From Candidatus Latescibacterota bacterium (GTDB lineage: Bacteria; Latescibacterota; UBA2968): a DNA stretch of 14,543 bases. A program made the translations under genes and the position numbers. The stretch covers positions 30,200 through 44,742 of the forward strand of contig JAYODI010000044.1 in assembly GCA_038279365.1 (NCBI GenBank). Direction: 5' to 3'. Below the pieces are notes generated by a model. The model made no database searches. It was not told the origin of the DNA and was given only the letters and a program-made list of their open reading frames with translations. Below are positions 7,971 through 14,543 of this stretch, piece after piece (the stretch's first letter is position 1; each line of letters begins with the position of its first letter).

Positions 7971-8906
7971 ATGATTCGCATATTTTCATACTCGCGGGCA
8001 TCAACCCGCATGGAAACACCTAAAATTGCCGAACTGCCACAACATTTAGAAGATCCAGATCGCATTGTTTGGGCAGATTTAGAAGCCCCAGACGATGAAG
8101 AAATGGGCGTTTTAGGTGGCATTTTTGGTTTTCATGTCTTGGCCGCCGAAGATTGTATTCAGGGTGGTTACCTGCCCATGTTTGCCCAATATGATACCTA
8201 TTCTTTTTTTGTCTTACATGCCATTGACACCGCAGAAATGGAGCAACACTTTCAAACCATCGAAGTGGGTTGTTTTTTAGGCGAACGTTTTTTGGTCACG
8301 CACCATGCCAAACAAGTCAAAAGTATATTTGATGCACGTGGCAAAATTGCCCAAAACCCAAGTGTGTTGCTCAATTCACCCGACGGTCTCTTGCACACCA
8401 TCATTGACGCCATGACCGATCATTATACCCCGGCCATTGAAGCCTTTAAAAATCGAATCGCAAACACAGACAACAGCCCAGACGAAATTAAAACACGCCA
8501 TATAGAAGCCGCAACACTCCTGCAAATTGGAAGGCTTCAACAAACCGTATTGACCCGCCTCTCACAAGAAAACGTACCATTTATTGCCAACGCCTATCAA
8601 GTCTATTACCAAAACGTGCAAGCACACCAAATCCGTGCCGTACAATTTGCAGAATCATGTGTTGCACATTTGGAAGCGCATTTAGAAACATTGAGAACCC
8701 AAGCGGCACAAGTTCAAAACATACGCACACTAATCGCCCTTACAACAACCTTTGCAACAGCTATTTTCCTTACTGTTTTAATCGATCCCAAAATGGACAA
8801 CCTCATCACCCTGTCCGATGAAGCCTGGAGCATCACCACCACACTCATCGTCTTTATCGTGAGTGGCGCAGTGGCTGGTATTTTTAAGTTCAAAAAGTGG
8901 TTCTAA
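7971..8906 (+). CDS. CorA/ZntB-like divalent cation transporter homolog lacking the GMN signature
   Basis: CorA N-terminal motifs 'WADLEAPDDEE', 'FGFHVLAAEDC', 'FLGERFLVTHH' and 'LLHTIIDAMTDHY'. Two C-terminal TM helices and a 'FKFKKWF' end. No YGMNF. Confidence 0.8.
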   Translation: MIRIFSYSRASTRMETPKIAELPQHLEDPDRIVWADLEAPDDEEMGVLGGIFGFHVLAAEDCIQGGYLPMFAQYDTYSFFVLHAIDTAEMEQHFQTIEVGCFLGERFLVTHHAKQVKSIFDARGKIAQNPSVLLNSPDGLLHTIIDAMTDHYTPAIEAFKNRIANTDNSPDEIKTRHIEAATLLQIGRLQQTVLTRLSQENVPFIANAYQVYYQNVQAHQIRAVQFAESCVAHLEAHLETLRTQAAQVQNIRTLIALTTTFATAIFLTVLIDPKMDNLITLSDEAWSITTTLIVFIVSGAVAGIFKFKKWF

Positions 8907-8943
8907 ATCCCTTTACGACTATTTTTCAAACAAAGAGTCTTTT

Positions 8944-10035
8944 ATGGTTGGTGTCACACTCGAAAATGTTACGAAGCGCTTTGACAACGTCGTTGCTTTA
9001 GAGCGCATCAATTTACAAATCCACGCAGGTGAATTTTTCTTTTTATTAGGGCCATCAGGATGTGGCAAAACCACACTCTTGCGCATCTTGGCAGGGTTTT
9101 ATACACCCGAAGGTGGGCGAGTGTCTTTTGGTGATCGCGATGTGACCATGGTGCCCCCTCATCAGCGCAACACAGGTATGGTGTTTCAAAACTATGCACT
9201 ATGGCCTCACATGACCGTCTGGAAAAATGTGGAATATGGCCTCACCATGCGCAAAATAGAGCAACATGAAAAAGACAAACGCGTGAAGCGTGCCTTAGAA
9301 ATGGTACAAATGGCAGGCTATGCCGACAGATCGCCCAATCAACTTTCAGGTGGCCAGCAACAACGTGTGGCACTGGCAAGGGCATTGGTCATCGAACCAG
9401 GTGTCATCTTAATGGACGAACCCCTATCCAACCTCGATGCACGGTTGCGCCTTGAAATGCGTGAGCAACTCCAAGACCTGCACAAAGCCTTGGGCGTTAC
9501 CATCATTTATGTCACGCACGATCAAAAAGAAGCCTTAGCAATGGGTGACCGTGTGGCGGTTATGCAAATGGGAAAAGTGGCACAAATAGGCAACCCACGC
9601 GAAGTTTACACACGCCCTGCCACCCGCTTTGTAGCAGACTTTATTGGCGAAATAAACCTTATTCCCGGTGAGGTCACCAACGAAACAGACGCACTTATTC
9701 AAACCGCGGTAGGCCCCATTAAAGGTGCAACAGATCGCTCACTTTCCAAAGGACAGCGGGTGTTATGCGCAGTGCGTCCCGAAGCATTAGACTTTCTCGA
9801 TAGTGATCCATCAGAAAACGACAACGTTATCACAGGTCAGGTCAAACACGTTATTTATTTGGGCGAAGTAGAGCAATACATCGTCGAACTCATAGATGGC
9901 ACACAGGTCAAGCTTGTGGAGTATGACCCTGCCGAACAACGCGCCAAATCCGGCGACAGCGTACGTCTTAAGTTTTCGCCCCACCGCGTTGTTATTTTGC
10001 CTCACGAGGAGGATGACCGTCATGAGACGGTATGA
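8944..10035 (+). CDS. ABC transporter ATP-binding protein (PotA/FbpC-like, TOBE C-terminus)
   Basis: Walker A 'GPSGCGKTT', Q-loop 'VFQNYALWPH', signature 'LSGGQQQR', Walker B 'ILMDEPLSNLD', H-loop 'VTHD'. Start moved to ATG 8944 to avoid overlap with the corA-like gene. Confidence 0.95.
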   Translation: MVGVTLENVTKRFDNVVALERINLQIHAGEFFFLLGPSGCGKTTLLRILAGFYTPEGGRVSFGDRDVTMVPPHQRNTGMVFQNYALWPHMTVWKNVEYGLTMRKIEQHEKDKRVKRALEMVQMAGYADRSPNQLSGGQQQRVALARALVIEPGVILMDEPLSNLDARLRLEMREQLQDLHKALGVTIIYVTHDQKEALAMGDRVAVMQMGKVAQIGNPREVYTRPATRFVADFIGEINLIPGEVTNETDALIQTAVGPIKGATDRSLSKGQRVLCAVRPEALDFLDSDPSENDNVITGQVKHVIYLGEVEQYIVELIDGTQVKLVEYDPAEQRAKSGDSVRLKFSPHRVVILPHEEDDRHETV

Positions 10036-11707
10036 TCTTAGTTGGGCAACGCTTGCCTTTTTGTTGGCATTGGCTCTGTTTTTTATTGCCTTTTTGTTTT
10101 ATCCACTTTGGTATGCCATTGTCAAATCAGTCACCGTAAATGGGCAAATAACCGTTACGTTTTATAAACTGATGCTGACAAGCCCCGTGCACCAAGAAGC
10201 CATACTCAACAGTTTTCGCTTGGGCACCATCACCACCATTGCCACCACCCTCCTCAGCCTTCCCATTGCGTTTGTTTTAGTACGTTACGACTTTCCTGGC
10301 AAAAACGTTTTAAACGGGCTCATCTTAGTCCCAATGGTCTTGCCACCCTTTGTAGGGGCCATTGGCATGAAACAAATGTTTGCCCGATTTGGCTCCATCA
10401 ACTTACTGCTTTTAGACATTGGCTTCATTGATCAACCCATCGACTGGTTTGGGGGGGGCGGTTTTGTAGGTGTGGTGATCTTAGAAGTTTTGCACCTGTA
10501 TCCCATTATGTATCTCAATGTGGCAGCATCTTTGGCCAATATTGACCCCAGCCTTGAAGAAGCCGCACGCAATATGGGCAGTTCGGGGTTTAAACTTTTT
10601 AGAACCGTTACCTTTCCACTCATGCTCCCAGGTTATTTTGCCGGTGCCATTATTGTCTTTATTTGGGCGTTCACAGATCTGGGCACCCCACTTATTTTCA
10701 ATTACAGGCAAGTGGTTGCCGTCGAAATTTTTAATGCCATCGAAGACATCAACGAAAACCCAATGGCTTATGCTCTTGTGGTCTTTGTTTTGTTGCTCAC
10801 CATCTTTTTCTTTTATCTGTCCAAATCTCTTTTAGGCAACAAACGCTACGAAATGATTGCCCGAGGGCATGTCTCTTCGGCTTCAAAACCCGCATCTCGC
10901 GGTCTTACAGCCATCATCTACATCGCCATGCTCTCACTGACTGGCATTGCGCTCATCCCGCATATCAGCGTCTTTTTAACCTCCATTACCCAACACTGGT
11001 TTATGTCCGTTTTACCACAAGAAATAACCGGCAAATATTATGGCATGGTATTTGAACACCCATTGGCCTTTTCAAGCATCAAAATAAGCCTCATTTTAAG
11101 CGTTTTGAGCACCACCTTAGACGTTGTTTTAGGCATTGCCATTGCCTACTTACTCACACGCACACGCATGCCCTACAAAGGTGTCTTAGATGCCACCGCC
11201 ATGTTGCCACTGGCTTTGCCCGGTCTGGTGCTTGCATTTGGTTATTTGGCAGGCTATTCGGGCACCTTTCTCGATGCCAGAGACAATCCAGTGCCACTCC
11301 TTGTTATTGCTTATGCCGTTAGGCGTTTGCCCTATATGGTGCGCGCCGCTTATGCAGGATTTCAACAAACAAGCGTCACCCTCGAAGAAGCCGCACAAAA
11401 TTTGGGGGCTTCGCGTTTGCGCATTTTGTTTCAGATCACATTTCCACTGATTATTGCCAACCTCGTCGCAGGTGGTATCCTCTGTTTTTCATTTGCCATG
11501 CTCGAAGTCAGCGACAGCCTTATCTTAGCACTCAAAGACAATTATTATCCCATTACCAAAGCCATCTATGCCTTGCTTGGGCGCATATCCGATGGTCCCT
11601 ATTTGGCCAGTGCAATGGGTGTTTTGGGCATGTTTTTACTCATTATCAGTTTATTTTTAGCAGGGCGTTTTTTAGGTCGTCGCATGGGCGAATTGTTTAG
11701 AGCGTAA
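10022..11707 (+). CDS. ABC transporter permease with duplicated TM domain (FbpB/ThiP-like)
   Basis: Two EAA loops, 'LEEAARNMGSS' and 'LEEAAQNLGAS', and about 12 TM helices. SD GAGGAGG precedes ATG 10022, which overlaps the ATPase 3' end. Confidence 0.93.
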   Translation: MRRYDLSWATLAFLLALALFFIAFLFYPLWYAIVKSVTVNGQITVTFYKLMLTSPVHQEAILNSFRLGTITTIATTLLSLPIAFVLVRYDFPGKNVLNGLILVPMVLPPFVGAIGMKQMFARFGSINLLLLDIGFIDQPIDWFGGGGFVGVVILEVLHLYPIMYLNVAASLANIDPSLEEAARNMGSSGFKLFRTVTFPLMLPGYFAGAIIVFIWAFTDLGTPLIFNYRQVVAVEIFNAIEDINENPMAYALVVFVLLLTIFFFYLSKSLLGNKRYEMIARGHVSSASKPASRGLTAIIYIAMLSLTGIALIPHISVFLTSITQHWFMSVLPQEITGKYYGMVFEHPLAFSSIKISLILSVLSTTLDVVLGIAIAYLLTRTRMPYKGVLDATAMLPLALPGLVLAFGYLAGYSGTFLDARDNPVPLLVIAYAVRRLPYMVRAAYAGFQQTSVTLEEAAQNLGASRLRILFQITFPLIIANLVAGGILCFSFAMLEVSDSLILALKDNYYPITKAIYALLGRISDGPYLASAMGVLGMFLLIISLFLAGRFLGRRMGELFRA

Positions 11708-11730: not shown

Positions 11731-12870
11731 ATGCCAGAAAAAGTTTCTATCTTATTTCCCATCCCCATCAATAAAAAAGATGCACCCCTTGTTGCAATGA
11801 CACGTCAAGGCATCGAAACCCAAACTTATCCGACAACACTTACCGAAATCATCGAAATTCAATATGTACCCACAGCACCAGGTGCACATGCTTCTGCACT
11901 CAATGCGGCCAAAGAAGCCGCAACAGGTACCTATATTGTCCACTCTGCATTAGGCGTTCAGTGGGACACAAGCAAATTAGAACGCCAAGTTTCTCACTTA
12001 GAAATGTATCCCGAATCAACAAGCAATGTACACCACGTAACCCTTCAAGCAGAAACAGGACAAACACAAAAACACCTTTGTAGCACCATTAAAAACTACG
12101 GCGGTAAAATAGGCAGTTTGTTAGAATCGCCTTGGGCACCTGGCACAATCATGCTCACCAAAGAAGCATCCAGCCAATTGGGTGCATATCGCAACATAGA
12201 CAATACCCTTTGGGAATATGCGCTTCGACAAATTAACCGCCAAGCAACACCTCAAATCTTAGAAGAAGATTTGGCCATCTGGCGAACAGAAACCCAACAT
12301 ATCAAACCCAGTCTTGTGGCGTCACAAATACAACATCGGTTTTTGAAACCCTATATCGACAAAACAGACACGCCCACATTGTTTACAGAACACCATTTGG
12401 TATCTGACATTCATGGACACTTGGTTCGCAATGCACTTTACCAAAAAAATGACGATCTTGATGCCGCACACCAAATATGTCAATCGGTGGGAGAAGGTTC
12501 ATCCTTACCCGAAATAAGCTATTGGCACGGCATTATTCATCGCAGAGAACCCGACATAAATAATGCGCGCAATTGGTTTCAAAGAGCTCAAAATTTGGCA
12601 GCCAACGATGCGCTTTATCGCGCAGCATATAGCCATTTGCAACGTGCCATTCAAATGCCCGATTATGGTGAGGCCCGAGAAACAGCCCTCCAATTTTTGC
12701 GCCACTTACAAACACAAGACACTTGGGACGCCCTTTATTTTTTGAATTTATGTGCATCTTGTTTACAAAATAAAGATCCCAATTTACAAAAACTCTTAGA
12801 AGACCTCCAAACCATAGAATTTAAAACGCTGTTCCATTGGACCTTTCAAAAAGCCACAGGACAAATATAA
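11731..12870 (+). CDS. Hypothetical protein: degenerate GT2 (GT-A)-like N-terminal domain fused to a conserved helical 'YWHGIIHRREPD..NA..WF' domain
   Basis: GT2 landmarks 'KVSILFP', 'ASALNAAKEAATGTYIV' and 'W...KLERQV..L', but no DxD. The C-terminal motif 'DLDAAHQICQ...YWHGIIHRREPDINNARNWF' I recognise from small hypothetical proteins. Confidence 0.6.
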   Translation: MPEKVSILFPIPINKKDAPLVAMTRQGIETQTYPTTLTEIIEIQYVPTAPGAHASALNAAKEAATGTYIVHSALGVQWDTSKLERQVSHLEMYPESTSNVHHVTLQAETGQTQKHLCSTIKNYGGKIGSLLESPWAPGTIMLTKEASSQLGAYRNIDNTLWEYALRQINRQATPQILEEDLAIWRTETQHIKPSLVASQIQHRFLKPYIDKTDTPTLFTEHHLVSDIHGHLVRNALYQKNDDLDAAHQICQSVGEGSSLPEISYWHGIIHRREPDINNARNWFQRAQNLAANDALYRAAYSHLQRAIQMPDYGEARETALQFLRHLQTQDTWDALYFLNLCASCLQNKDPNLQKLLEDLQTIEFKTLFHWTFQKATGQI

Positions 12871-12887
12871 CATCCTGAAAATATTTC

Positions 12888-12922
12888 AAAAAAAAGCCAT
12901 CGCAAATGCGATGGCTTTTTTT
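12888..12922. terminator. Bidirectional intrinsic terminator between convergent genes
   Basis: A8-GCCATCGCA-aa-TGCGATGGC-T7. Confidence 0.93.
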
Positions 12923-12960
12923 ATTTAAAATCTGTTGGTCACACGTTCAAATCCGACACA

Positions 12961-13473
12961 TCACGATGCATAAGGCGAAAAACGCCGCAGCAATACAGGC
13001 ACCAAAAAAACACAAATAAGTGCTTCTGGAATCACAAAGCTTGCATTATATAAGGCAGCATACATCCAAACAGGTGTGCCCTCAGGGGCATATTCGCCAA
13101 AAAATACAAAACCAGATACAAAATGCGAACACCACCGCAACAAACTGGCACATAAAATACCCAACCAAATTCTGTTGGGAAACAACCCCGCCAAACCCAA
13201 CAAAGCAAAAGGCAATGGGTAATCTAAGACAACCTGCACAGGATGAAAAATAAATGCCCCAAAAAACAATTGTAAAACCCCATCCAAACACCCCGTTAAA
13301 ACACCCAATCGCCAACCGCCCCAAAAAGCCATAAACAAAATGGGCAATGTCTCAAGCGTAATAGAACCGCCTTGTGGCAATTGCAAGGGCAAGACTTTTC
13401 CCACCATACCCAAAACAACAGCCAATGCCGCCGCCATGCCACAAAAAGTAATGTCGCGTGTGCCCAATTTCAT
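12961..13473 (-). CDS. thiT: Energy-coupling-factor thiamine transporter S component ThiT
   Basis: ThiT/YuaJ motifs 'LPQGGSITL', 'HPVQVVLDYPLPF', 'HFVSGFVFFGEYAPEG' and 'YAALYNASF'. About 6 TM. GAGG SD upstream. Confidence 0.92.
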   Translation of the reverse strand: MKLGTRDITFCGMAAALAVVLGMVGKVLPLQLPQGGSITLETLPILFMAFWGGWRLGVLTGCLDGVLQLFFGAFIFHPVQVVLDYPLPFALLGLAGLFPNRIWLGILCASLLRWCSHFVSGFVFFGEYAPEGTPVWMYAALYNASFVIPEALICVFLVPVLLRRFSPYAS

Positions 13474-13651
13474 GCCGTCCTCAATGTTTGTCTATTCGTC
13501 ATACAAGAGCCTCTTTTTTGCGTTGCTGTGTCTTCAGAATATCTTTATTATGTCATATTGCTTACAAGGCCAACCCTATTAAAATACGGCCTGCGTCTCA
13601 CATTTTCAAAAATATTTCTCGACCATGGCAAACGGCGTATGATCATGGCAT

Positions 13652-13685
13652 AAAAAAAGCGTCAGAATACTTTATTCTGACGCTT
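13652..13685 (-). terminator. Intrinsic terminator following the DUF5069-like gene
   Basis: 13-bp inverted repeat AAGCGTCAGAATA-ctt-TATTCTGACGCTT with an A7 tract on + (U-tract on -). It starts 12 nt after the TAG at 13698. Confidence 0.88.
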
Positions 13686-13697
13686 CATAATACGGTG

Positions 13698-13973
13698 CTA
13701 TTTTGCCTTTTTTTTGTCCCAAATGGGTTTTATTTTTTCAATAACCTCTGCATCCGTAGGACAGGTATTAATAATTTCGGTAAAATCATCTGCAGCAATC
13801 CCAAGTTCCTCCAGGAACTTTTTGTCTGCGCCTCAAGGGTAGATATAATCACCAATCGTACCACGCAACTTGGCGCGTGCTTTGTCTGTAATACGTGGCA
13901 ACCAAGGCATGCCTCCCATTGTTAATTGACGGCTTCGTGGCCGAAAGTCAACAGCTGGACTCAGTTGATCCAT
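13698..13973 (-). CDS. DUF5069-like small protein with in-frame UGA; probable selenoprotein (91 aa, Sec47)
   Basis: Manual translation: MDQLSPAVDFRPRSRQLTMGGMPWLPRITDKARAKLRGTIGDYIYP-U(TGA 13835-13833)-GADKKFLEELGIAADDFTEIINTCPTDAEVIEKIKPIWDKKKAK*. Matches the DUF5069 pattern as I recall it ('PRS....GG...L.R..DKARA...G..GeY.Y.C..D..fL..lGi') on both sides of the TGA. Has a perfect SD, SECIS-like hairpin and terminator. Confidence 0.85.
13803..13820 (-). other. Candidate bacterial SECIS element
   Basis: mRNA reads UGA-GGCGCAGACAAA-AAGUUCC-UGGA-GGAACUU: a perfect 7-bp stem starting 12 nt after the UGA, with the apical loop 19 nt from it and G at loop position 2. Confidence 0.75.
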
Positions 13974-13977
13974 AAAT

Positions 13978-13988
13978 ATCACCTCCTT
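13978..13988 (-). promoter_or_regulatory. Strong Shine-Dalgarno sequence for the DUF5069-like gene
   Basis: AAGGAGGTGAT on the - strand, an 11-nt complement of the canonical 16S 3' end, 4 nt before ATG 13973. Confidence 0.9.
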
Positions 13989-14013
13989 CTCATCAAATGG
14001 TTATCATCACTTC

Positions 14014-14042
14014 AAAATGAACCTTTTAAGTTCTGTTGTCAA
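14014..14042 (-). promoter_or_regulatory. Possible sigma70 promoter for the DUF5069-like gene
   Basis: - strand TTGACA (14042-14037), 17 nt, CATTTT (14019-14014). The -10 is weak. Confidence 0.4.
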
Positions 14043-14543
14043 GAACGAAAGCGATGTGTTTAACGTGCAAAAACGAAAATATAACAGTTGCAATTTCTAC
14101 AGCGCATGCATTTTCCTCATTGCGCTTACCATTGGGCCTCTCACGCAAAATGCGTCAGCCCAAACCTATCAGGAAGCCCCTGAGTTTGCCAAACGTGTTG
14201 CAAAAGGTGAGTTGCCACCCGTGTCACAACGTTTGCCCGAAGAACCATTGGTGCTTGAGCCCTATGAAGAAATTGGGCAATATGGCGGCACTTGGAATCG
14301 CATGATGAAAGGAACCAGCGATTTCCACGCTTTTGGACGGTGTGTTTACGAACAAATGCTGCGCTGGGCCCCAGATCCCAAAGATGGTATTTTGCCCGGC
14401 CTGGTCAAAGAATGGGCCTTTACAGAAAATGGTAAAACACTCACCCTTATACTGCGCAAAGGCCTCAAATGGTCAGATGGGCACCCCTTTTCAACAGATG
14501 ACATTCTCTTCTGGTGGGAAAAAATCGCCCAAGACCCCAATCT
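14017..14543 (+). CDS. Family-5 ABC substrate-binding protein (DppA/OppA/oligosaccharide-type), 5' part only; not in ORF track
   Basis: Open frame to the window end: signal-peptide-like '...IFLIALTIGPLTQNASA/Q', then 'YQEAPEFAKRVAKGELPPVSQRLPEEP', 'IGQYGG' and 'LRKGLKWSDGHPFSTDD'. The true start could be ATG 14017, GTG 14056 or GTG 14065. Confidence 0.9.
   Translation, partial: MNLLSSVVKNESDVFNVQKRKYNSCNFYSACIFLIALTIGPLTQNASAQTYQEAPEFAKRVAKGELPPVSQRLPEEPLVLEPYEEIGQYGGTWNRMMKGTSDFHAFGRCVYEQMLRWAPDPKDGILPGLVKEWAFTENGKTLTLILRKGLKWSDGHPFSTDDILFWWEKIAQDPN

What the first reader, a model, noticed from the sequence alone, without database searches (positions are those of the whole stretch)
13698..13973. 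Hidden DUF5069-family selenoprotein (UGA = Sec47) invisible to standard ORF calling
Seen in sequence: a perfect SD, ATG, 46 codons, an in-frame TGA, 44 more sense codons, TAG, then a dedicated terminator. Both halves fall below the ORF-track length cutoff, so the gene is missed. Recalled family knowledge: DUF5069 proteins read roughly 'PRS...GG..L.R..DKARA...G..GEY.Y(N/P)CP.D..(F/L)L..LGI'. Here the TGA sits at that Cys ('GDYIYP-U-GAD') and similarity continues after it. TGA is an ordinary stop in the GNAT, ATPase and thiT genes, so this is not a reassigned genetic code. Inference: a Sec-for-Cys variant, which implies the conserved Cys of this uncharacterised family is redox-active, catalytic or metal-binding. 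Cys71 (TCPT) could be a resolving partner. I do not know of DUF5069 being characterised as a selenoprotein family, but I cannot check the literature.
Basis: partly seen in the sequence, partly recalled or inferred. Interest (0 to 1): 0.92.

Follow-up and report, generated by a model that had tools for sequence, protein, structure and literature searches.

The report
New selenoprotein family: short DUF5069
A small gene that ordinary gene finders split at an internal TGA is almost certainly a real selenocysteine-containing protein of the uncharacterised DUF5069 family, which marks that family's conserved cysteine as its working residue.

Summary
On the minus strand (13973..13698) there is a strong ribosome-binding site, ATG, 46 codons, TGA, 44 codons, TAG and a 14-bp terminator. 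Read through, the product matches Pfam DUF5069 across the TGA (E 2.3e-18). U47 aligns with the family's conserved Cys, including the Cys of PDB 3omd.

The genome carries selA, selB, selD (itself with an in-frame TGA) and tRNA-Sec. Of 104 orthologs found in 151 genomes of the phylum, 91 have the same in-frame TGA and 13 have none.

A hairpin (GUUCC-UGGA-GGAAC) lies 14 nt after the UGA. Its 12-nt core is exact in 72 of 74 distinct Sec forms, with no synonymous variation in codons 52-56, but in only 1 of 11 Cys forms. Codons after the TGA are under purifying selection (dN/dS 0.21). An independent DNA contig and two metatranscriptome contigs carry the TGA unchanged.

DUF5069 is not among the 119 families of a May 2026 selenoprotein inventory, has no NCBIfam selenoprotein model, and gave no full-text hits. 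Cys71 is not conserved, so the proposed resolving partner is not supported.

Function remains inferred: a single-selenol redox or catalytic centre at a helix N-cap in an orphan helical fold. Selenium incorporation itself is untested.

The parts
13978..13988 (-). Shine-Dalgarno sequence AAGGAGGTGAT, ending 4 nt before the ATG
   Evidence: Read directly.
13698..13973 (-). Coding sequence of the 91-residue short-form DUF5069 selenoprotein (ATG 13973, TAG 13700..13698)
   Evidence: Translation with TGA=U. Pfam PF16798 at 67 bits against a cut-off of 27, residues 12-83 spanning the TGA. Orthologs. dN/dS is 0.078 upstream and 0.207 downstream of the TGA.
13833..13835 (-). UGA codon 47, read as selenocysteine (motif Y-x-Y-P-U-[G/P]-x-D)
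   Evidence: It aligns with Cys in homologs and in PDB 3omd. The TGA is confirmed without differences in one independent DNA contig and two RNA contigs.
13792..13829 (-). SECIS-type element inside the coding sequence. The upper hairpin AAGUUCC-UGGA-GGAACUU is at 13820..13803, with core GUUCC/GGAAC at 13818..13805, 14 nt after the UGA. A weaker 3-bp lower stem pairs 13829..13827 with 13794..13792.
   Evidence: Fold, consensus fold and pair counts. Fifteen nucleotides are invariant in 35 of 35 Sec orthologs. The 12-mer is exact in 72 of 74 Sec forms against 1 of 11 Cys forms. Codon entropy is zero at codons 52-56. selD of the same genome has a comparable hairpin 12 nt after its UGA.
13656..13686 (-). 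Intrinsic terminator-like hairpin (14 pairs) with T-run, 11 nt after the TAG
   Evidence: sequence.

Best explanation
This is a genuine selenoprotein gene and the founding example of a selenoprotein subfamily within DUF5069 (PF16798).

How it is decoded (inferred from the anatomy and the standard bacterial mechanism). The mRNA carries, 14 nt after UGA47 and inside the reading frame, a hairpin GUUCC-UGGA-GGAAC with two G in the apical loop. This would recruit SelB-GTP-Sec-tRNASec so that UGA47 is read as selenocysteine. UGA elsewhere remains a stop. In four relatives the same gene even ends in UGA.

What is made. The product is a roughly 10 kDa protein, predicted as a short beta-hairpin plus four helices, which is the N-terminal two-thirds of the DUF5069 fold. 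Sec47 sits at the N-cap of helix 2 in the motif G-D-Y-x-Y-P-U-[G/P]-x-D. It lies among the family's near-invariant charged residues R13, R27, D30, K31, R33, D50 and D74.

What it probably does (inferred, about even odds). Sec47 is a single redox or catalytic selenol. It has no conserved intramolecular partner, so it would be recycled by an external thiol system.
For: Shown by tools:
1. Anatomy.
2. Family: Pfam DUF5069 E 2.3e-18 across the TGA. PDB 3omd matches by sequence (E 4.8e-11, its Cys opposite U47) and by fold (Foldseek TMq 0.78; VIA Z 12.7, next best 4.0).
3. Sec/Cys pairing: among 192 domain rows of 175 family proteins, column 47 is C 119 (one of them the query, written C for U), S 29, W 9, gap 15 (14 ORFs that end exactly at Y-P plus one partial row), and other 20. 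One W-form (P0003) and five of the truncated forms map onto loci whose codon is TGA.
4. Machinery: selA (592 bits), selB (379 bits), selD (367 bits, 1 in-frame TGA) and tRNA-Sec (68 bits; ARAGORN anticodon tca) lie clustered on contig C34. selA is over the cut-off in 40 of 41 relatives, including single-contig genomes that also carry the TGA gene.
5. Recurrence: 35 of 37 orthologs in the order have the TGA, as do 69 of 80 loci and 91 of 104 orthologs in 151 genomes of the phylum.
6. SECIS: 15 invariant nucleotides in 35 of 35. Codons 52-56 show no synonymous variation in 69 Sec forms, while every other conserved residue with more than one codon shows 0.6-2.5 bits. The 12-mer is exact in 72 of 74 Sec forms against 1 of 11 Cys forms. 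The two Sec exceptions keep a stem in the same register (L136 with the same UGGA loop; L144's read by eye), and L132/L134 carry A-U in place of G-C. Lower-stem pair 18-51 is CG 12, UA 9, AU 2. Sec and Cys interchanged 5 times on the tree, at least 2 of them forced.
7. Downstream translation: dN/dS 0.207 for codons 57-84 (431 pairs).
8. Not an assembly error: DNA contig X5 and RNA contigs X9 and X10 span the TGA with 0 differences.
Against: - There is no direct evidence of selenium in the protein. All organisms concerned are uncultured MAGs.
- The hairpin alone is not more stable than shuffled sequence (z -0.33).
- Its upper stem never varies within the order, so it offers no covariation there: 5 of 6 pairs never vary. 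The lower-stem pair is unpaired in 8 of 32 distinct rows.
- The genome bin has 7.4% contamination, and the sel genes lie on a different contig from the window. Single-contig relatives mitigate this.
- Column 47 is Ser in 29 of 192 family rows, so the residue is not indispensable to every DUF5069 domain.
- No conserved operon partner was found in 14 loci, and no structural relative with a known function. The functional part is therefore inference only.
- The RNA evidence consists of assembled contigs. It shows presence in RNA libraries, not expression level or transcript ends.
Confidence: 0.9

Rival explanations
1. The TGA is a true stop. The gene is a decayed DUF5069 pseudogene or encodes only a 46-residue peptide, and the downstream frame is not translated.
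For: Public gene callers treat it this way: 14 database ORFs end exactly at Y-P. TGA is an ordinary stop in 3 of 11 other ORFs in the window.
Against: The downstream 44 codons stay open and conserved in 74 distinct TGA-bearing sequences, with dN/dS 0.207. Pfam and 3omd alignments run straight through the TGA. The TGA is kept in 91 of 104 orthologs across the phylum, which a decaying pseudogene would not show.
Confidence: 0.02
2. The UGA is read through, but not as selenocysteine. It is decoded by a near-cognate or suppressor tRNA (Trp, Cys or Gly), or the organism uses an altered code.
For: Nine database homologs are written with W at this position. No selenium measurement exists.
Against: The W is a gene-caller artefact in the one W-form (P0003) that could be matched to DNA, where the codon is TGA. 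TGA ends other genes here. The aligned residue in homologs is Cys, never Trp in a sequence with verified DNA. A complete Sec machinery is present. An RNA hairpin is held invariant at synonymous sites only when the codon is TGA, which is the signature of SelB-dependent decoding.
Confidence: 0.03
3. It is a selenoprotein, but Sec47 is not a redox centre. It binds a metal or metalloid, carries sulfur or selenium as a per(seleno)sulfide, or acts as a nucleophile on an oxyanion or phosphorylated substrate held by the conserved Arg and Lys residues.
For: There is no UxxC or CxxU motif and no conserved second Cys. Near-invariant R13, R27, K31 and R33 together with D30, D50 and D74 surround the site. 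Ser replaces Cys in 29 of 192 family rows, which is more typical of nucleophile or ligand positions than of disulfide chemistry. A review table read here lists metal-binding and transferase selenoproteins among the known families (PMC13188914, section 7 parts 1-2).
Against: Nothing tested here separates this reading from a redox role. That review states that most uncharacterised selenoproteins are thought to be redox proteins. One Poribacteria locus (L118) has a glutaredoxin-fused pyridine-nucleotide-disulfide oxidoreductase immediately upstream, but this is 1 of 14 loci.
Confidence: 0.35

Closest known systems
Pfam DUF5069 (PF16798) Cys-containing proteins, including PDB 3omd (uncharacterised protein of Leptospirillum rubarum)
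   Same: Same domain by sequence (67 bits; 3omd E 4.8e-11) and by fold (VIA Z 12.7, rmsd 2.0 over 84 residues). The motif Y-x-Y-[P/G/N]-C-[P/G]-x-D is shared, with Cys where this protein has Sec.
   Different: This protein has Sec instead of Cys. It covers only profile positions 4-75 of 133, so it is a short form of about 90 residues. The same genome's five other DUF5069 domains are full length and have no in-frame stop. No function is known for any member: full-text searches for DUF5069 and PF16798 gave 0 papers.
Catalogued bacterial selenoprotein families (119 in Table 1 of PMC13188914, May 2026; NCBIfam selenoprotein models)
   Same: Single in-frame UGA, Sec/Cys pairing with homologs, a SECIS hairpin directly downstream, and a host that uses Sec. 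These are the same criteria by which those families were defined.
   Different: PF16798/DUF5069 is not in that table, which I read in full. The best NCBIfam hit is a sub-threshold 13 bits to SaoT. The review says most catalogued families have a thioredoxin-like fold or a UxxC/CxxU motif. This protein has neither: it is predicted mostly helical and the motif is U-[G/P]-x-D.
SelD (selenophosphate synthetase) gene of the same genome, used as an internal reference for the SECIS
   Same: In-frame UGA followed by a coding-region hairpin that begins 12 nt downstream, with G residues in a small apical loop (GGU). The spacing is comparable to the 12-14 nt and UGGA loop seen here.
   Different: The hairpin sequence is unrelated, and the protein family is unrelated and well characterised.

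Membership tests
Bacterial SelB/SECIS-dependent selenoprotein | In-frame UGA inside a reading frame that stays conserved and under purifying selection downstream | tested here: met
   dN/dS is 0.207 for codons 57-84 over 431 pairs.
Bacterial SelB/SECIS-dependent selenoprotein | Homologs with Cys aligned to the UGA (Sec/Cys pair) | tested here: met
   11 of 80 loci have TGC or TGT at the same codon. 119 of 192 family rows have C, one being the query itself. The Cys of 3omd aligns with U47.
Bacterial SelB/SECIS-dependent selenoprotein | Stem-loop shortly downstream of the UGA with G in the apical loop (the spacing range of the published bSECIS consensus is recalled, not from a call) | tested here: met
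   A 5-7 bp stem begins 12-14 nt after the UGA, with loop UGGA. It is invariant at synonymous sites in Sec forms and lost in 10 of 11 Cys forms. Conserved apical-loop guanosines are mentioned in a passage of PMC2398784.
Bacterial SelB/SECIS-dependent selenoprotein | selA, selB, selD and tRNA-Sec in the genome | tested here: met
   All four are over their curated cut-offs on contig C34. selA was found in 40 of 41 relatives.
Bacterial SelB/SECIS-dependent selenoprotein | Selenium physically present at the residue (75Se labelling or mass spectrometry) | not testable with these tools
   No proteomic data could be reached, and the organisms are uncultured MAGs (record titles).
Pfam DUF5069 (PF16798) | Score above the gathering threshold | tested here: met
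   67 bits against a cut-off of 27, E 2.3e-18. Only profile positions 4-75 of 133 are covered.
Pfam DUF5069 (PF16798) | Same fold as the solved member, 3omd | tested here: met
   AF2 model with pLDDT 87.1. Foldseek E 3.9e-4, TMq 0.78. VIA Z 12.7.
Thioredoxin-fold UxxC/CxxU selenoproteins | UxxC or CxxU motif | tested here: not met
   The motif is P-U-[G/P]-x-D. No Cys lies within 3 residues of U47 in any ortholog.
Thioredoxin-fold UxxC/CxxU selenoproteins | Thioredoxin-like alpha/beta fold | tested here: inconclusive
   The model is four helices plus a small beta-hairpin. No thioredoxin-fold chain appears among the fold-search matches, but a missing match does not prove that the folds differ.
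Any NCBIfam selenoprotein model | Hit above the curated cut-off | tested here: not met
   The only hit is NF040730 (SaoT) at 13.2 bits against a cut-off of 65, E 0.057.

The most novel reading that the evidence does not exclude
DUF5069 is a previously unrecognised class of single-Cys/Sec enzyme with an orphan helical fold. Its active residue sits at a helix N-cap among invariant Arg, Lys and Asp residues. Its Sec form is the default state in one whole class of Latescibacterota and in many Poribacteria. That would make it a core selenium-dependent function of these uncultured sediment and sponge-associated lineages, for example a thiol-recycled peroxide or oxyanion reductase, rather than one more thioredoxin-like protein.
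Probability: 0.35. Interest if true: 0.7.

Novelty: new member of a known kind. Interest (0 to 1): 0.58.

Why it matters
First, it adds a selenoprotein family that is missing from the most recent inventory of 119 families and from NCBIfam. As a result, current pipelines either truncate the gene at the TGA or write Trp at that position.

Second, Sec-for-Cys replacement is a strong natural pointer to a functional residue. It gives the first functional handle on DUF5069, a family with a solved structure (3omd) and no described function. The handle is the Cys of the Y-x-Y-P-C-P-x-D motif, which can now be mutated and assayed.

Third, the fold is neither thioredoxin-like nor UxxC/CxxU, which widens the range of structural settings in which Sec is used.

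Fourth, the gene is kept as Sec in 91 of 104 orthologs across a class of an uncultured phylum. That makes it a useful marker for selenium use in these lineages.

Tried and rejected
Leads that gave nothing:
- Gene-neighbourhood inference of function. ORFs around 14 loci showed no consistent partner. An RsmD-like methyltransferase lies upstream in 3 Latescibacterota loci, and an HDOD protein downstream in 3. UPF0182 and pheA flank the gene in Poribacteria. A Grx-fused disulfide oxidoreductase appears upstream in only 1 locus. The neighbours of the genome's own long-form paralogs were also uninformative.
- Fold searches for a functional relative found only 3omd.
- An Rfam scan of 12800-14200 found nothing above a gathering score, and no TPP riboswitch before thiT.
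- Single-sequence folding of the SECIS region is not significant on its own.
- The + strand ORF 13458-13925 was rejected as the real gene because it has no Pfam match and lies antisense to the conserved frame.
- Cys71 was rejected as a resolving partner because it is not conserved.
- The U47-C71 distance could not be measured, because model coordinates are not exposed.
- GOS_A, a 2008 hypothetical selenoprotein, was considered as a possible earlier description. Its sequences in the GOS supplement are unrelated, and the family motif DKARA does not occur in either supplement file.
- The search for '3OMD' returned only unrelated biomedical papers.

- The search of earlier findings.
- Paper reading from then on. 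The supplements of the Olavius, Sargasso, ISME 2016, Tara and deep-Sep papers were therefore not checked. PMC12013261 (Haft & Tolstoy 2025) is not held.
- RNA contigs are absent on the thiT side of the gene (13400-13678). This is recorded here only, not as evidence.

Full report
OBSERVATION

The feature lies on the minus strand. Reading 13973..13698 with TGA=U gives a 91-residue product with U at position 47 and TAG as the stop. An 11-nt Shine-Dalgarno match, AAGGAGGTGAT, ends 4 nt before the ATG. A 14-pair hairpin with a T-run follows the stop at 13686..13656.

A standard 60-aa ORF list omits the gene. It lists instead an antisense ORF at 13458-13925, which has no Pfam match.

TGA terminates 3 of the 11 other ORFs of the window: FR47/GNAT, the ABC ATPase and ThiT. 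The code is therefore not reassigned.

FAMILY AND THE ALIGNED RESIDUE

The read-through product matches Pfam DUF5069 (PF16798) at 67 bits against a cut-off of 27, E 2.3e-18. The match covers residues 12-83, straight across the TGA, but only profile positions 4-75 of 133. NCBIfam gives no real hit.

The only solved relative is 3omd, an uncharacterised protein. Its Cys in Y-N-C-P-L-D lies opposite U47.

An AlphaFold2 model built on a 94-sequence alignment has pLDDT 87.1 and pTM 0.74. It shows a small beta-hairpin and four helices, with U47 immediately before helix 48-57. Fold searches find 3omd and nothing else of note: Foldseek E 3.9e-4, TMq 0.78; VIA Z 12.7, with the next best at 4.0.

A full HMMER pass over 1.84 billion representatives found 472 relatives at E<=1e-3. 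In 192 domain rows from 175 proteins, the column of residue 47 reads as follows:
- C in 119 rows, one of which is the query itself, written C for U.
- S in 29 rows.
- W in 9 rows.
- A gap in 15 rows: 14 are ORFs that stop exactly after Y-P, and one is a partial row.
- G in 5, A in 3, and other residues in 12.

The column of Cys71 is not conserved: G 32, gap 28, A 25, N 21, S 20, C 16.

THE W AND TRUNCATED FORMS ARE TGA

One W-form (P0003) and five of the truncated forms (P0023-P0027) match fetched loci in which the codon is TGA. The other eight W-forms and P0028 found no identical locus in what I fetched. Public gene calls therefore either cut this gene at the TGA, often adding a spurious N-terminal extension, or write Trp.

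SEC MACHINERY

Contig C34 of the same genome carries the following:
- selA (592 bits).
- selB (379 bits).
- selD (367 bits, with one in-frame TGA).
- tRNA-Sec (68 bits; ARAGORN anticodon tca).

The bin has 199 contigs and 7.4% contamination, and C34 is not the window's contig. However, selA is over the cut-off in 40 of 41 relatives. The one miss, G020, is 91% complete and also lacks the ortholog. Single-contig genomes carry both selA and the TGA-bearing gene.

RECURRENCE

- In 41 genomes of the same order, 37 have an ortholog. Of these, 35 have exactly one in-frame TGA, always at codon 47, and 2 have TGC.
- Among 80 loci from named MAG records, the codon is TGA in 69, TGC in 6 and TGT in 5. 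The record titles are Candidatus Latescibacterota, Candidatus Poribacteria, and some labelled Gemmatimonadota.
- The two sets overlap. Together their 117 loci give 85 distinct gene segments, 74 with Sec and 11 with Cys.
- In an even sample of 151 genomes of the phylum, 104 have an ortholog at E<=1e-15. Of these, 91 carry the TGA and 13 do not. All hits lie in four families of one class (103 of 114 genomes, not counting the window's own), and none in 36 genomes of the other families.

SECIS

Directly downstream lies a hairpin, AAGUUCC-UGGA-GGAACUU. Its core stem starts 14 nt after the UGA and its apical loop 19 nt after.

On one sequence it is not more stable than shuffles (z -0.33). The evidence is comparative:
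- In 35 Sec orthologs of the order, 15 consecutive nucleotides are invariant (the 2 Cys rows were left out of this alignment).
- RNAalifold recovers the hairpin plus a 3-bp lower stem.
- 96.2% of cells pair, against 11-60% when the partners are slid. The upper stem gives no covariation (5 of 6 pairs never vary). Lower-stem pair 18-51 is CG 12, UA 9, AU 2, UG 1 and unpaired 8.
- In 69 gap-free Sec forms, codons 52-56 (AAG TTC CTG GAG GAA) have zero codon entropy. Every other fully conserved residue with more than one codon shows 0.6-2.5 bits. Five of the 74 forms were dropped for a one-codon insertion, FLD in place of FLE, or an N.
- The 12-mer core is exact in 72 of 74 Sec forms and in 1 of 11 Cys forms. 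In the sequences printed, both Sec exceptions keep a stem in the same register: L136 CGCUUCC-UGGA-GGGAGCG (reported by the script), and L144 CGCUUC-CUGGAU-GGAGCG (my reading of the printed sequence; the script's best stem for L144 was a different 6-bp one). L132 and L134 have A-U where the others have G-C.
- On a tree with residue 47 masked (84 rows, one dropped for N), Sec and Cys interchange 5 times, with at least 2 changes forced by well-supported branches.
- selD of the same genome has an 8-bp hairpin with a GGU loop 12 nt after its UGA.
- In four relatives the gene's own stop is also TGA, so decoding depends on position.

DOWNSTREAM TRANSLATION AND READ SUPPORT

Median NG86 dN/dS is 0.078 for codons 7-46 and 0.207 for codons 57-84, over 431 pairs with 0.2<dS<2.5 in both parts.

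Three assembled contigs span the TGA with no differences: one from an independent DNA run (X5, 13745-13899) and two from metatranscriptome runs of different studies (X9, 13806-13982; X10, 13806-13984). These are assembled contigs. They show presence in RNA libraries, not expression level or transcript ends.

FUNCTION

Nothing direct is known.
- Neighbourhoods are not conserved.
- The genome's five other DUF5069 domains are full length and have no in-frame stop. Two are tandem genes on C180, and three sit in one 443-residue protein on C109. Their neighbours are uninformative.
- What the sequence shows is a single Sec at a helix N-cap in Y-x-Y-P-U-[G/P]-x-D, with no UxxC or CxxU motif and no conserved second Cys. 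Near-invariant residues are P12, R13, R27, D30, K31, R33, A34, Y43, D50 and D74.

My inference, at roughly even odds, is a single-selenol redox centre recycled by an external thiol system. The main alternative is a nucleophile or ligand for a metal, metalloid or oxyanion.

NOVELTY

- Full-text searches for 'DUF5069' and 'PF16798' returned 0 papers.
- Searches pairing 'selenoprotein' with 'Latescibacteria' or 'Poribacteria' listed nothing relevant; I saw the listings only.
- I read all of Table 1 (119 families, each with a domain ID) of the May 2026 review PMC13188914, section 7 parts 1 and 2. DUF5069 is absent.
- I saw only passages of the deep-Sep paper (PMC12013277) and the BSepDB paper (PMC13326102). 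Neither names the family.
- The one BSepDB supplement file held has no 'DUF5069', 'PF16798' or 'DKARA'.
- The two GOS supplement files lack the motif, and GOS_A is unrelated.
- Paper reading closed, so the supplements of the other surveys remain unchecked. PMC12013261 is not held. Its families are represented in NCBIfam according to the review table, and NCBIfam gave no hit.

VERDICT

This is a real, widely conserved selenoprotein gene, and a new selenoprotein subfamily within an uncharacterised domain family. Selenium incorporation and function remain to be shown experimentally.

Noticed in passing
G000 contig C34:31069-36920 (loci L001, L006, L014, L018): The Sec genes are clustered as selA, selB, selD, tRNA-Sec. 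selD is itself a selenoprotein (in-frame TGA in the G-G-U-A-S-K site), with an 8-bp hairpin and GGU loop 12 nt downstream.
   Followed up: partly
G000 C180:16600-17439 and C109:10804-12045 (L026-L030): There are five further DUF5069 domains in the same genome, all full length and without in-frame stops. Two are tandem single-domain genes beside an ECF-sigma/ankyrin ORF. Three sit in one 443-residue protein beside a DUF480 gene. Triple-domain ORFs of about 435-480 residues recur in relatives.
   Followed up: partly
window 13458-13925 (+): A 155-codon antisense ORF overlaps the real gene and its terminator. It is what a length-filtered ORF list shows here. It has no Pfam match and is probably spurious.
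   Followed up: yes
L050, L053, L058, L060 (relatives): In these orthologs the gene's own stop codon is also TGA, about 45 codons after the Sec-TGA. One mRNA therefore carries both a Sec-UGA and a stop-UGA.
   Followed up: no
L135 (Cys form, TGT): This Cys-form locus keeps a 7-bp hairpin in the same register, but with loop UACA and no G. It may be a fossil SECIS left after a Sec-to-Cys change.
   Followed up: no
L118:1750-2973: In one Poribacteria locus, a glutaredoxin-fused pyridine-nucleotide-disulfide oxidoreductase lies immediately upstream of the Sec gene. This is the only redox neighbour seen in 14 loci.
   Followed up: no
window 8863-10035 against 7971-8906 and 9896-11707: The longest-ORF calls of the ABC ATPase overlap the CorA-like ORF by 44 nt and the permease ORF by 140 nt. 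The cause is probably start-codon choice by the mechanical ORF list rather than real overlaps.
   Followed up: no
window 13474-13655 (-): No TPP riboswitch or other Rfam family was detected upstream of the ThiT-family thiamine transporter gene, although such genes often carry one (that expectation is recalled, not from a call).
   Followed up: partly
record titles: Some records that hold close orthologs (57-74% identity) are titled Gemmatimonadota/Gemmatimonadetes (L089, L096, L098, L104, L107), while most are titled Candidatus Latescibacterota. The public labels look inconsistent.
   Followed up: no
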